Shown here piece after piece: positions 38,969 through 60,216 of a DNA stretch of 64,000 nt. This DNA comes from Anolis carolinensis (taxonomy: Eukaryota): contig NC_085843.1 of NCBI RefSeq assembly GCF_035594765.1, forward strand, positions 135,695,971 through 135,759,970, in the 5' to 3' direction. The notes under the pieces are model-generated. The model did not search any database. It worked only from the letters and a program-made list of their open reading frames with translations, and was not told where the DNA came from. Positions within the stretch are counted from its first letter, which is position 1; each line of letters starts with the position of its first letter. A program made the translations under genes and the position numbers.

Positions 38969-39859
38969 TGTAACGCTCCTAAGCAGCGCGAACACTGGGA
39001 ACCAACACGGAGGCCAATAAACAATCTAATATCTTTATTAAAGCAATTAAAGTTTCAAACAAAAATAAGCAGAATAGATAGTCAAGCAGTTGACCTTTCA
39101 GGAAAGATCAAAATTAGTCCGAAAAATGAAAGTCTTATGTCCAGTATTAGAGTCCAAAGTCCAATAACCAATACACACTCAAACTTATTGGAAGTTTGAG
39201 TGGGGAAAGGAGCAATGTTCCTCAGGAAAGTACTTGAAGTGAAAGTCCAGAACAAGGTATCAAGGCAAGGCTATGACTGTTCGTGATGGATCTGAAATGC
39301 AGTCCAAACTTGACAAGGGATGAGACACAAGCCCGGTCTACTCGAGAGTAAGCGCGCCAGCAGGCCACTTGGAAGCTCAGGATCAAGAGACGATGTATTC
39401 TTCAGTCAGAAGTTAAGTTGACACCGCGACAGAGATTCTCGGTGCAGAACTTTTATTGAAGTCCAAGAGCTCCCCCAAAGCAGGTGCTTGACTCCCAAAA
39501 TCTTCCCAAGAGAAATGAGCTGCTAACAATGAGGCGCCAGATGCCTGCCTCCCCAATTCTTCCCAAGAGAACTGGCTTAGCCACAATCGCCTCGCTCTGC
39601 TAATCTCACACTTCTCCTTAAACTTTGTCTTTGAGAGCAGTCTGTTTTGAAAGTAGCCCTTCTATCAAACACTAAACTCTCCGGAGAGAGAGCCGGCACC
39701 ATCTCAAGGGCATTCCTAATTGGCTCTGGCACGGCAATGTCAACAGGAGACATCTGGAAAGGGATTTAATCTTGCTGAGGTGGGAAAAAACCCAAATCCT
39801 CTTCAGTTTGATCCACAATGGCTGCAGGATCAGGGGCCAAAGGTGCCTGAGACATCACA
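38969..39859 (-). mobile_element. Solo LTR (Gypsy-like), 891 bp
   Basis: TGT...ACA termini, TSD agtgc / agtgt, minus-strand AATAAA (39034-39). Both ends are homologous to the 44160 LTR. Confidence 0.85.
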
Positions 39860-43099: not shown

Positions 43100-44159
43100 A
43101 TATACTCATTGCTTAACCAAGCAGTGATTCAGTTCATTGTTTTGCTCTCATCAGCTTGCTTCAACAGGAAAACACATGTCTTGTTTTATTTTTAAGTTTA
43201 GCATGTATGATTGTTCGTATTAAACATTTCCTCACTATCTTCAAAACACACATACATAGAACAATAGAAATAAAGTGCATAATAAGTGGCAATCATATGA
43301 ACATCCTGCCTTCTCCTGTCCCAACCAATGGTTACAAGAAGGAGATGGTTCCTTTATACCTTAACAGAATTGATAGGTTTGAATCAGCATTAGGCTTGAG
43401 CGATCCACGAAAAAATTGATTCTAAACTCGTTTCAAAAGTAGGGGGGCAGCGTTTCGTTTCTGATGTCATTTCCGAATTTTGCCCCCCCAAAAATTCAAA
43501 ATTAACGAAAATTCGTTAGTTTCAAAAGTAATTTGTTAATGGCGGAAGCGCATGCGCAGTGGCCCAAAACAGCCCGAAGGGGGGGGGGCTTTTATGGGGC
43601 TCTCCTGCACTCATTTTTTCAGCTATACTGATCAAATTTGGTACAGTGAGAGAACAGTTAGGGTTGAGCACTGCAGCTCAGGCAAGAAAGCCAAGAGAAA
43701 ACAATACACCCTCCCTGTGGCCCAAGCCAAGTGTTATTGCGGAGGATAATGGGACTTGCAACCTTTTGCCAGACTTTGCTAGGGTTTTGAAAGGAGAAAG
43801 AGATTTGCAGCAAGCGCAAATTGAGCACTGCAGCTCAGGCAAGAAAGCCAAGAGAAAACAATACACCCTCCCTTTTGCCCAAGTTGTTTTTCAGTGGATT
43901 ATGGGGAGTTTTGCCAGACTTTGCAAAATGAAAATTGGAATATTTGATTTCTTCTATTTGCAACTCACTTTAATGCCTATGCAAAGAAAAGTTTCCTAAT
44001 CAAACGAAACCCCACCCCGCACCAGGCAATATGGTGCAGCAGAAAAATTGCAGGGCTGGTGGGCAAATGGCAAATGCCAAGCTTGTGGGGAAAAAAGCCC
44101 ACAGGCCCTTTGGAAAAAAAACCCTGCACAAACACCCAACAGTTTTCCACCTCACCCAC

Positions 44160-45025
44160 TGTGATGACTCATGGGCCTTGTAGTCCTGTTCCTAGTACTA
44201 TTGTGGCAGACGAAGAGGAAAACATGGGGTTTTCGCCGGTTCAGCAAGAGCCGGGGTCTCTTCACCTGCAGGATATTGATGTTTGTCCTCAAGAATTCAG
44301 CCAAACAGGCCTTGGGCAGAACTCCCCCCCGTTTCCCAGAAAAGAATCTTATTCCAGAGAAAGGGGAAACAGAGAAGCTCAATTGAGGAGTTTACGCATT
44401 GCTGCCAGAAATCAAGCTGATTAGGCTTGCTTCCCTTGGGAAATTCTAAGGAGTCACACATCTGGACAGAGTTGGGTTTCGCTTCTCATTCTCTAGGGAA
44501 AGAGTTCTGTTGGCGGGAAAACGAGACCCAATATAGGTGATTGGCGCGAGGAATTCCTTGCGGAGTCAATTGATCAGCTTCAGGAGAGAGATCGTGTGTG
44601 GACTTCGTACCCCAGTTCCTTGCTTCTCGGATCAAGTTTTCAAGCCTTGCCTAGCCTTGCAGTTTTACCACGGACCCTGCTCCACGCTCATGTTTTGCCT
44701 TTGTTTCCAGTTATGAATCTAGCCAAGAATCAAGTTTAATTCCAGCCTTGTTGTCAAGCTTCATTGAACTCTAGGACTCTGCTAATTCCCCACACTATTG
44801 CTTGGCAAAGTGTGTGTTTCGGTCAAGTGGATTAAAACTTTGAACGCTAATATCTTATATTGGACAATACATTTTGGACTATATTTGACCTCTTTTGAAA
44901 GGTCTGCTTCTGAACTATATTCTTCACTTGTTTTTATTGCTTTTATATATTTCTTTAATAAAGATATTAGATAGAGATTGGCCTCTGCGTATGGTTATTG
45001 GTGCTCTGCTGCCAGGGTTCTGACA
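44160..45025 (+). mobile_element. Solo LTR (Gypsy-like), 866 bp
   Basis: TGT...ACA termini, perfect 5-bp TSD cccac (44155-59, 45026-30), AATAAA at 44957-62. Confidence 0.92.
44164..44424 (+). CDS. Putative LTR(U3)-encoded 86-aa peptide or pol C-terminal extension
   Basis: Open frame MTHGPCSP...EEENMGF...FPRKESYSRERGNREAQLRSLRIAARNQAD*. Homologous frames exist in the two other LTRs. Confidence 0.5.
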   Translation: MTHGPCSPVPSTIVADEEENMGFSPVQQEPGSLHLQDIDVCPQEFSQTGLGQNSPPFPRKESYSRERGNREAQLRSLRIAARNQAD

Positions 45026-55533: not shown

Positions 55534-56458
55534 TGTTTTGCCCAGCCTGAGATTGGGCCAATTCAGCCAGTGATTGTTCCTGCACCTGCCTTGCCAGAGG
55601 ACTCTGGGTTTGGGCCTGAGATGCAGCCAGAGTTTGTCCCAGTGGATTCTCAGACCAGAGACAGAATGGTTGCAAGCAGGCATTGTGAACCACATTCCTC
55701 CCAGTAGCATTCCTCCCCGCAGTCAAGGTCAGATCTCCAGGTGCCAAATTGACATTCTAGTTTAGAGGAGGATAATGAGTTTGACAGGAAAGCAGCGATA
55801 ACTCATCGGAGGAGGGAACGAGAATGTTTGCGGAGAAGCAAATGGTTGCTTTTGAAGCAGTCTAATTAGTAGTTTTCTCATGAGAGGAAGACCTTGGATT
55901 TTCCTTAAAATGGCTTGCTTTCTCTGCCACAGCCAGAGGTGGCCACATTGCTTATTCAAGAAAGAAGGATCTTTGCTCTGTGCTCCTGTGTATTCCTGCA
56001 GCCGTGTATCCTGCTTCAAGTTCCAGCCTTGCCTTGGCCTTTGAACCCAGTTGGATATTCCAGTGACTTTGCCGTATGGTTTTTATTCCAATCAAGATCC
56101 TTGCCTTGTGTTTCATCATTGACTTTATACCTTGGACTACCTTGGAGTTAATCCTGCACTCTAGTCTTGTTTTCCTGTGGTTATCCTTGATTCATGCCTT
56201 GGAAATAATCCTGTTCGGACTATTCTTGATATCTCTTGGGACTTACTTTGATATTCAGTTTTGGACTATGCTCTTTGAGTGGTTTTTATAGATTCTTGCT
56301 TCATGAACTTCAAGTACCTTGCTCTTGTAGATTTAAACCTATTCTACTGACTCTGAACTTTATTGTGCTTTTGCTTGCATATAACCTTCAATGCACAACT
56401 TGCCTGCTTATATTTTGGGGCTCCAATGTGGTTTTGAGGTGCCTAGGGGTGCAAAACA
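55534..56458 (+). mobile_element. Solo LTR (Gypsy-like), ~925 bp, older
   Basis: 8-bp terminal inverted repeats tgttttgc / gcaaaaca; cagagtg spans both junctions (TSD overlapping the termini). Same internal reading-frame motifs as the other two LTRs. Confidence 0.75.
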
Positions 56459-59499: not shown

Positions 59500-60216
59500 T
59501 GAGCAATGAATTCAAACTAGAATCATAGAATCATAGAATCATAGAATAGTAGAGTTGGAAGAGACCACATGGGCCATCCAGTCCAACCCCCTGCTAAGAA
59601 GCAGGAAATCGCATTCAAAGCACCCCTGACAGATGGCCATCCAGCCTCTGCTTAAAAGCCTCCAAAGAAGGAGCCTCCACCACGGCCCTGGGGAGAGAGT
59701 TCCACTGTCGAACAGCTCTCACAGTGAGAAAGTTCTTCCTGATGTTCAGGTGGAATCTCCTTTCCTGTAGTTTGAAGCCATTGTTCCGTGTCCTAGTCTG
59801 CAGGGCAGCAGAAAACAAGCTTGCTCCCTCCTCCCTATGACTTCCCTTCACGTATTTGTACATGGCTATCATGTCTCCTTTCAGCCTTCTCTTCTGCAGG
59901 CTAAACATGCCCAGCTCTTTAAGCCGCTCCTCATAGGGCTTGTTCTCCAGACCCTTAATCATTTTAGTCGCCCTCCTCTGGACGCTTTCCAGCTAGAGGA
60001 AACTAGAGGAAAAGAGGTTCCACCTGCACATTAGGAAAATATTCCTGGTGGTAAGAGCTGCTCAACAGTGGAATATGCCATCTCAGAGTTTCTTTCTTTG
60101 GAGATTTTTAAACAGAGACTTTACGATCCAAAAGTTAGAGTACTTTGATTGTATGTTCTTCCATAGCAGGGAATTGGACTGGATGACCCTTGTGATCATA
60201 ACTTTATGATTCTATG
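59500..60216 (+). mobile_element. Older CR1 3' fragment acting as target of a younger antisense CR1
   Basis: gcaatgaattcaaacta | gaggaaaagaggttccacctgcacattaggaa...ttggactggatgaccct...tatgattctatg is colinear with CR1 616-868. Confidence 0.8.
59522..59994 (-). mobile_element. Young 5'-truncated CR1
   Basis: Near-identical to 407-868 in reverse, (catagaat)x3 tail, 8-bp TSD aaactaga (59514-21, 60000-07). Confidence 0.97.

What the first reader, a model, noticed from the sequence alone, without database searches (positions are those of the whole stretch)
44160..44424. Three diverged solo LTRs share a conserved LTR-internal peptide ending in an RRSxRL-like basic motif
Seen in sequence: each LTR has a reading frame from its first bases. 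LTR 44160(+): VMTHGP...IVADEEENMGF...FPRKESYSRERGNREAQLRSLRIAARNQAD* (fully open). LTR 39859(-): VMSQAP...IVDQTEEDLGF...FDRRATFKTDCSQRQSLRRSVRLAERGDCG* (one internal TAA). LTR 55534(+): CFAQPE...LPEDSGF...FDRKAAITHRRRERECLRRSKWLLLKQSN* (two internal stops; TGG may be CpG-decayed CGG). The last block aligns without gaps as F-x-R-[KR]-x9-R-[EQ]-x3-R-S-x-[RW]-[LI], with the stop 6-7 residues later. The nucleotide sequences differ widely, which points to protein-level selection inside an LTR. Established knowledge: U3-overlapping ORFs exist in retroviruses (HIV nef, MMTV sag), and RRSARLS is the nucleosome acidic-patch-binding motif of HMGN proteins. Inference: this retrotransposon lineage encodes an acidic/Pro-rich plus basic peptide in U3. 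It could be a pol/integrase tail read through the PPT or a separate ORF (ATG at LTR base 5 in two copies), possibly used for chromatin tethering.
Basis: partly seen in the sequence, partly recalled or inferred. Interest (0 to 1): 0.75.

Follow-up and report, generated by a model that had tools for sequence, protein, structure and literature searches.

The report
Integrase tail hidden in lizard LTRs
In a lizard jumping gene, the integrase reading frame runs on into the element's terminal repeat and adds a protein tail kept by natural selection, ending in an HMGN-like motif that would likely help the element grip host chromatin.

Summary
The three window LTRs are solo LTRs of a vertebrate Tf1/sushi-type (V-clade) Ty3/Gypsy chromovirus in an anole genome.

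The peptide is therefore the integrase C-terminal tail. It is in frame in 35 of 55 junctions.

It is not a separate LTR gene. The ATG is absent in 30 of 30 family-C LTRs, and the inferred transcription start lies downstream of the frame.

Selection acts on the protein: omega is 0.31 in the tail and 0.22 in the last block, against 0.88-1.03 downstream. Shared indels keep frame in 11 of 12 cases inside the tail, against 25 of 109 outside.

Among 49 3' LTRs, 22 read RRSAR[LI], matching HMGN and Dot5 at the arginines known to bind the nucleosome acidic patch. Binding is untested.

Pol read-through into the LTR is known from plant CRM elements. I found no report of this HMGN-like tail behind a chromodomain. 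Verdict: new variant of a known kind.

The parts
44160..45025 (+). Solo LTR, family A (young) of a Tf1/sushi-type chromovirus
   Evidence: TG..CA, 5-bp TSD CCCAC; 39 other genomic matches at 98-99% among the 40 scored; full-length copies L031-L033
44161..44424 (+). Passive copy of the integrase C-terminal tail (87 aa + stop): acidic/Pro part then basic part
   Evidence: In L031 the same frame is the end of the 1369-codon pol frame; residues 1-57 have 9 D/E, 0 K/R, 8 P; residues 58-87 have 9 K/R
44332..44400 (+). Conserved F-x-R-K...RSxRI block (this copy reads LRSLRI)
   Evidence: omega 0.22 for this block across 16 3' LTR copies
44530..44537 (+). TATA-like element about 30 nt before the inferred start
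   Evidence: sequence; similar AT-rich box at the same distance in the 23 of 49 3' LTRs that match the start block; function inferred
44560..44569 (+). Inferred 5' end of the element RNA / self-primer block (U3-R border)
   Evidence: 10-nt exact complement of the sequence just after the 5' LTR in L031 and L032; no such match in L033
44957..44962 (+). AATAAA poly(A) signal near LTR 3' end
38969..39859 (-). Solo LTR, family B
   Evidence: TG..CA, TSD ACACT/GCACT; 39 other matches at 92-95% among the 40 scored
39577..39858 (-). Tail frame in LTR B, one internal stop at 39768-39766; RRSVRL block 39669-39601
39418..39427 (-). Homologue of the start/self-primer block in LTR B (LTR position 433)
55534..56458 (+). 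Solo LTR, family C (older); ends and TSD degraded
   Evidence: 39 other matches at 84-94% among the 40 scored; flanks
55534..55869 (+). Tail frame in LTR C, internal stops at 55705 and 55750; RRSKWL block 55780-55848

Best explanation
The peptide is the last part of the pol reading frame of an anole chromodomain-bearing Gypsy retrotransposon, running through the polypurine tract into the 3' LTR, and its HMGN-like RRSxR[LI] motif likely helps tether the integration complex to nucleosomes. Shown: the architecture gag / pro-RT-RH-IN-SH3-chromodomain-tail, the in-frame junction, and purifying selection on the tail. Inferred: transcription starts near LTR base 401, so only the 3' LTR copy is in the RNA and translated, and solo LTRs inherit the frame passively because U3 is copied to both ends. 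Predicted: about 75 residues of disordered acidic/Pro tether followed by a basic helix. Inferred mechanism: two-point nucleosome reading, with the group I chromodomain on methylated H3K9 and the arginine motif on the H2A-H2B acidic patch. My odds: integrase tail 0.93; some chromatin-binding role 0.6; acidic patch specifically 0.4.
For: 35 of 55 chromodomain-PPT-LTR junctions are in frame, and the commonest linker lengths 68, 65 and 53 nt all keep frame (binomial 4e-6, copies not independent). UniRef Anolis models P0002, P0156 and P0157 end the same way. Tree-based omega on 16 open copies: chromodomain 0.105, tail 0.316 (0.314 on a DNA-only alignment), last block 0.22, other frames 1.45-1.59, LTR after the stop 0.88-1.03. 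In 49 copies not filtered for open frames, shared indels are multiples of 3 in 11 of 12 cases in the tail against 25 of 109 downstream (Fisher 4e-6), single-copy indels in only 1 of 8, and the LTR-start-to-Ser distance keeps frame in 43 of 49. Motif arginines switch between CGN and AGR codons. Motif columns in 49 copies: R 48, R 44/K 4, S 47, R 41, L/I 49; 22 of 49 read RRSAR[LI]. HMGN RRSARLSA, Dot5 RRSARIAT and Dsup RRSSRLTS bind the acidic patch through these arginines (PMC13347269 and bioRxiv 2025.01.06.631586, passages). Aromatic cage F, W, Y/F is kept in 16 of 16 chromodomains.
Against: No binding, protein or integration-site data. 20 of 55 junctions are out of frame, including the single B-start (L095) and C-start (L104) 3' LTRs found by pattern. 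No intact element with a family-C LTR was recovered, so read-through for C rests on homology. Some off-frame lengths recur (64 nt x4, 67 nt x3, 66 nt x3). The motif sits inside a predicted helix (residues 138-164), whereas HMGN/Dsup motifs are recalled as lying in disordered regions; that model is weak overall (mean pLDDT 52.9, chromodomain misfolded). Family A, the youngest, has RRSLRI and family C RRS[KR]RL, not RRSARL. Other squamate tails lack the motif: 0 of 69 single-chromodomain proteins with tails of 60 aa or more had [RK][RK]S.R[LI] (many are junk gene models). The 16 copies for omega were chosen for open frames, and the 10-nt self-primer match is absent in L033.
Confidence: 0.5

Rival explanations
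1. It is the integrase tail, but the basic block works as a nuclear localisation signal for the pre-integration complex, not as a nucleosome anchor.
For: Two basic clusters (R-[KR] ... RRSxR) at a fixed spacing resemble a bipartite NLS (consensus recalled). Ty1 integrase has a C-terminal NLS and beet CRM integrases a potential one (PMC3605345 passages and reference titles). Other squamate tails end in basic clusters without the RRS motif.
Against: The motif is Arg-only with a near-invariant Ser (47 of 49), L/I (49 of 49) and an upstream Phe, more than an NLS needs. The spacer is 13 residues and never gapped.
Confidence: 0.22
2. It is the integrase tail, and its basic helix binds nucleic acid or another host protein (as proposed for the plant CR domain), the HMGN likeness being convergent wording.
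For: Predicted helix with conserved R68, E72, R75, R79 spaced i, i+4, i+7, i+11 on one face. The CR domain is described as a helix with a basic TRARAR/K motif behind a poorly conserved tether (PMC11302176 passages).
Against: Exact RRSAR[LI] in 22 of 49 copies; no partner identified; the structure prediction is weak.
Confidence: 0.2
3. It is a separate small U3 gene translated from the ATG at LTR base 5, like nef or sag.
For: ATG at base 5 in 30 of 30 A, 30 of 30 B and 39 of 49 3' LTRs; the LTR frame stays open in several off-frame junctions.
Against: No ATG in 30 of 30 C copies and 10 of 49 3' LTRs that keep the peptide. The ATG is part of the TGTGATG terminus. The frame is upstream of the inferred start site. 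In-frame fusion to pol is the majority state.
Confidence: 0.05
4. The conservation reflects a DNA promoter motif or mere descent, with no protein selection.
For: U3 carries promoter elements; the three LTRs are homologous.
Against: Omega 0.22-0.32 only in this frame, third positions most variable, CGN/AGR switching, frame-keeping shared indels.
Confidence: 0.02

Closest known systems
V-clade (Amn/Sushi; Tf1/sushi group) vertebrate chromoviruses, including the Anolis element of Piskurek et al. 2009 (title seen in a reference list only; paper not held)
   Same: Gypsy domain order, chromodomain at the integrase C-terminus, no tRNA PBS but a self-priming complement, AATAAA close to the LTR 3' end, 5-bp TSD, anole host.
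   Different: An 85-110 aa selected tail encoded in U3 behind the chromodomain was not described in the passages I saw; I could not check whether Piskurek 2009 or Butler 2001 mention it.
Plant CRM group A centromeric retrotransposons (CR motif) and beet Bingo elements (PMC3059260, PMC3605345, PMC11302176; passages)
   Same: Pol ORF extends into the 3' LTR; in CRM the LTR encodes a putative targeting motif, a basic helix on a poorly conserved tether.
   Different: In CRM the CR motif replaces the chromodomain and reads TRARAR/K; here a group I chromodomain is kept upstream of the PPT and the LTR adds a second, RRSxR[LI] module. No centromere link tested.
HMGN / Dsup / Dot5 nucleosome-binding motif (PMC13347269; bioRxiv 2025.01.06.631586; passages)
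   Same: R-R-S-x-R-[LI] with the critical arginines and serine conserved; RRSARLA and RRSARIA are the commonest forms here.
   Different: Here it is C-terminal on a retroelement integrase, in a predicted helix with a fixed upstream F-x-R; binding not tested; no homology beyond the motif.
Foamy virus Gag chromatin-binding site (search listing abstracts only)
   Same: A retroelement protein that engages nucleosomes to guide integration.
   Different: On Gag, in a retrovirus, different motif, not LTR-encoded.

Membership tests
Ty3/Gypsy chromovirus | gag, then PR-RT-RH-IN order between two LTRs with TSD | tested here: met
   L031: (TSD GTAAC; 5' vs 3' LTR 2 mismatches of 867)
Ty3/Gypsy chromovirus | Chromodomain at integrase C-terminus after GPY/F-SH3 | tested here: met
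   Pfam SH3_Tf2-1 1125-1183, Chromo 1208-1256; aromatic cage in 16 of 16
Tf1/sushi group (V-clade) | Self-priming: post-LTR sequence complementary to the RNA 5' end instead of a tRNA PBS | tested here: met
   10-nt complement at LTR base 401 in 2 of 3 full-length copies; feature per PMC6317226 passages. tRNA 3' ends were not searched.
Tf1/sushi group (V-clade) | RT phylogeny groups with Amn/Sushi | not tested
   No named reference RTs were fetched; membership inferred from host, chromodomain and priming
CRM group A (CR motif) | Pol extends into 3' LTR | tested here: met
CRM group A (CR motif) | CR motif in place of a chromodomain; tRNA-Met PBS; plant host | tested here: not met
   Chromodomain present, self-priming complement, lizard genome
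HMGN-like acidic-patch motif | RRSxR[LI] with arginines 1, 2 and 5 conserved | tested here: met
   R 48, R 44, R 41 of 49; 22 of 49 RRSAR[LI]
HMGN-like acidic-patch motif | Arginine-dependent binding to the H2A-H2B acidic patch | not testable with these tools
   Needs a binding assay
Independent U3 gene (nef/sag type) | Own conserved start codon and separate transcript | tested here: not met
   ATG absent in 30 of 30 C copies and 10 of 49 3' LTRs; frame fused to pol

The most novel reading that the evidence does not exclude
Anole chromoviruses have evolved, inside their own promoter repeat, an HMGN-mimic arginine anchor that together with the chromodomain makes the integrase a bivalent nucleosome reader (H3K9me plus acidic patch), switchable by phosphorylation of the motif serine. 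LTR-encoded integrase tails with lineage-specific terminal motifs would then be a general, overlooked targeting module of vertebrate chromoviruses, convergent with the plant CR domain.
Probability: 0.3. Interest if true: 0.75.

Novelty: new variant of a known kind. Interest (0 to 1): 0.52.

Why it matters
How vertebrate LTR retrotransposons choose insertion sites is little known. This gives a short, selected, directly testable candidate module: a 30-residue peptide with a textbook acidic-patch motif on an integrase that already has a chromodomain. If it binds, it would be a transposon integrase using HMGN mimicry, which I did not find in the searches named, and an animal parallel to the LTR-encoded CR domain of plant centromeric elements. 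It also shows the first 260-340 bp of thousands of anole LTR hits to be former coding sequence, which explains why several Anolis gene models end in this peptide.

Tried and rejected
Complex prediction of anole H2A + H2B + the last 36 tail residues of L136: no answer, score 0.02, not evidence either way. ESM Atlas: no usable hit. Pattern searches for intact family-C 3' LTRs found only L104/L105, a different C-start subfamily in a degraded copy. Tail-only searches of the protein collection found only Anolis carolinensis entries (3, 6; word-limited, so absence elsewhere is weak). Profile search of representatives: 150 hits, 0 of 69 long tails with the motif, shuffle mean 0.18. The first codon model fixed kappa at 1 and gave control omega 0.71-0.78; it was replaced by a model with free kappa. 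The AlphaFold model misfolds the chromodomain, so no fold search was run. Earlier findings of the scan: none on this sequence, genome or idea; eight word hits were unrelated. Piskurek 2009 is not held. Literature searches without a listed paper on this tail: (listings only; one search showed 20 of 250). Supplements were not read. Rejected: DNA-motif conservation, separate U3 gene, CRM membership.

Full report
OBSERVATION. The three peptides are in the sequence as described. LTR A is 44160-45025(+) with TSD CCCAC, B is 39859-38969(-) with TSD ACACT/GCACT, and C is 55534-56458(+) with degraded ends. The F-x-R-[KR]...RSx[RW][LI] block is gap-free and 6-7 residues from the stop in each. Each LTR has many relatives: 2807, 1477 and 1290 first-look candidates, 40 scored per search. 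The host is Anolis carolinensis or very close, since an A. carolinensis UniRef model carries the peptide at 97% identity.

WHAT THE ELEMENT IS. Three pairs of family-A hits 5.3 kb apart were fetched. L031 has a 343-codon gag frame and a 1369-codon pol frame. Pfam finds protease (weak), RT, RNase H, H2C2, rve, SH3_Tf2-1 and Chromo, in that order. Its LTRs differ at 2 of 867 bases; L032 and L033 differ at 3 and 7. After the 5' LTR lies a 10-nt exact complement of LTR bases 401-410 in L031 and L032, but not in L033. A TATA-like box lies about 30 nt upstream of that block, and 23 of 49 3' LTRs match the block at positions 373-428. Self-priming is the mark of the Tf1/sushi group (PMC6317226 passages), whose vertebrate members form the V-clade (PMC2774666 passages). 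No RT tree was built.

THE PEPTIDE IS THE END OF POL. L033 does the same in its last frame; L032 has a stop at tail codon 28. To generalise, I took 66 loci with chromodomain-LTR junctions, 57 after removing identical chromodomain starts, 55 with a recognisable PPT. Of these 35 are in frame, 13 off by -1 and 7 off by +1, and the commonest linker lengths keep frame. B-like subfamilies include in-frame junctions (L123, L125, L131), but the B-start copy L095 and the C-start copy L104 are off frame and degraded. No element with a true family-C LTR was found. UniRef Anolis models already end with the tail without remark. The ATG at base 5 is part of the TGTGATG end. It is absent from 30 of 30 C copies and 10 of 49 3' LTRs and lies upstream of the inferred start site. 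A separate gene is unlikely, and solo LTRs are passive carriers.

SELECTION. I used 16 of the 22 junctions that are open from chromodomain to tail stop (three near-duplicates and three with partial or run-on ends were dropped). Pairwise omega was 0.07 for the chromodomain, 0.29 for the tail and 0.80-0.82 downstream. A tree-based model with free kappa gave 0.105, 0.316 (0.314 on a DNA-only alignment; 2dL 114 against omega 1), 0.22 for the last block, 1.45-1.59 for the other two forward frames, and 0.88-1.03 for the LTR after the stop. These copies were chosen for being open, so I also tested 49 of the 55 junction LTRs without that filter (two rearranged, one far-out and three near-duplicate copies dropped). 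Shared indels were multiples of three in 11 of 12 cases inside the frame and 25 of 109 outside; single-copy indels were in 1 of 8; and the distance to the motif serine kept frame in 43 of 49 across ten lengths from 217 to 274 nt. Within family C, 3 of 3 shared indels kept frame. Within family B, 0 of 2 did. Motif arginines use both CGN and AGR codons.

ANATOMY AND MECHANISM. The chromodomain keeps the three aromatic cage residues in 16 of 16 copies, the type said to read methylated H3K9 (PMC3059260 passages). The tail has an acidic/Pro half with no K/R and a basic half. AlphaFold2 leaves residues 63-132 of the chromodomain-tail model disordered and makes 138-164 a helix, but the model is weak and misfolds the chromodomain. 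Across 17 diverse tails F58, R68 and S77 are invariant and R60, R75, R76 nearly so. In 49 copies the motif reads R(48) R(44) S(47) x R(41) [LI](49) A(47), and 22 are RRSAR[LI]. HMGN RRSARLSA, Dot5 RRSARIAT and Dsup RRSSRLTS bind the acidic patch through those arginines, and serine phosphorylation is proposed to weaken HMGN binding (PMC13347269 and bioRxiv 2025.01.06.631586 passages). I therefore favour a tethered second nucleosome-binding module on integrase. This step is inference. An NLS or a nucleic-acid-binding helix are live rivals.

RANGE. Tail searches returned only A. carolinensis. Chromodomain relatives from six other squamates continue into acidic tails, three with basic ends but a different motif, and another set ends in SP[EA][YF]. 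These suggest read-through is wider and the motif lineage-specific, but no DNA was seen.

COMPARISON AND NOVELTY. Pol extending into the 3' LTR is known in plant CRM group A, where the LTR encodes the CR targeting motif, and in beet Bingo elements (PMC3059260, PMC3605345 passages). The CR domain is described as a basic helix on a tether (PMC11302176 passages). An Anolis chromovirus was described in 2009; I saw only its title. Eight literature searches (listings only, subscription journals mostly not held) showed no paper on an HMGN-like integrase tail. The element class and read-through are known. The selected LTR-encoded tail with an HMGN-like motif behind an intact chromodomain appears undescribed.

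VERDICT. Observation confirmed; interpretation partly supported; new variant of a known kind; interest 0.52.

Noticed in passing
proteins P0001, P0003, P0024, P0158: Four Anolis carolinensis gene models (two cation-transporting ATPases, a LINE-type RT, a ZNFX1-like protein) end in the LTR tail peptide; probably annotation artefacts, exonisation not excluded.
   Followed up: no
proteins P0018, P0036, P0051, P0028, P0022, P0118: Chromodomain proteins from Rhineura, Vipera, Crotalus, Podarcis, Salvator and Naja continue past a G/D-S/G/N-V-M-type junction into an acidic/Pro stretch; the first three end in a basic cluster without RRSxR. LTR location inferred, no DNA seen.
   Followed up: partly
proteins P0025, P0091, P0100, P0115, P0123, P0139, P0144, P0154: A second set of chromovirus proteins has a short tail after the junction ending in S-P-[EA]-[YF], a possible different LTR-encoded terminal motif; hosts unnamed or not looked up.
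   Followed up: no
junction set: Out-of-frame junctions mostly differ by 1-2 nt from in-frame lengths in G-run-rich linkers, and some recur (64, 66, 67 nt), which may be slippage, assembly error or non-autonomous sub-lineages.
   Followed up: partly
L020, L029, L070, L119: A second related LTR tail lies within about 1.5 kb of the LTR that brought in the locus; possible clustering or nesting of insertions.
   Followed up: no
window 406-869 and 59531-59994: Two 464-nt copies at 98% identity in opposite orientation, a young repeat.
   Followed up: no
window 14473-14937: Three tandem copies of a 149-nt unit at 94-98% identity, before a GC-rich stretch at 16-19 kb.
   Followed up: no
window 43664-43883: A 63-nt direct repeat at 157-nt spacing just upstream of LTR A.
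   Followed up: no
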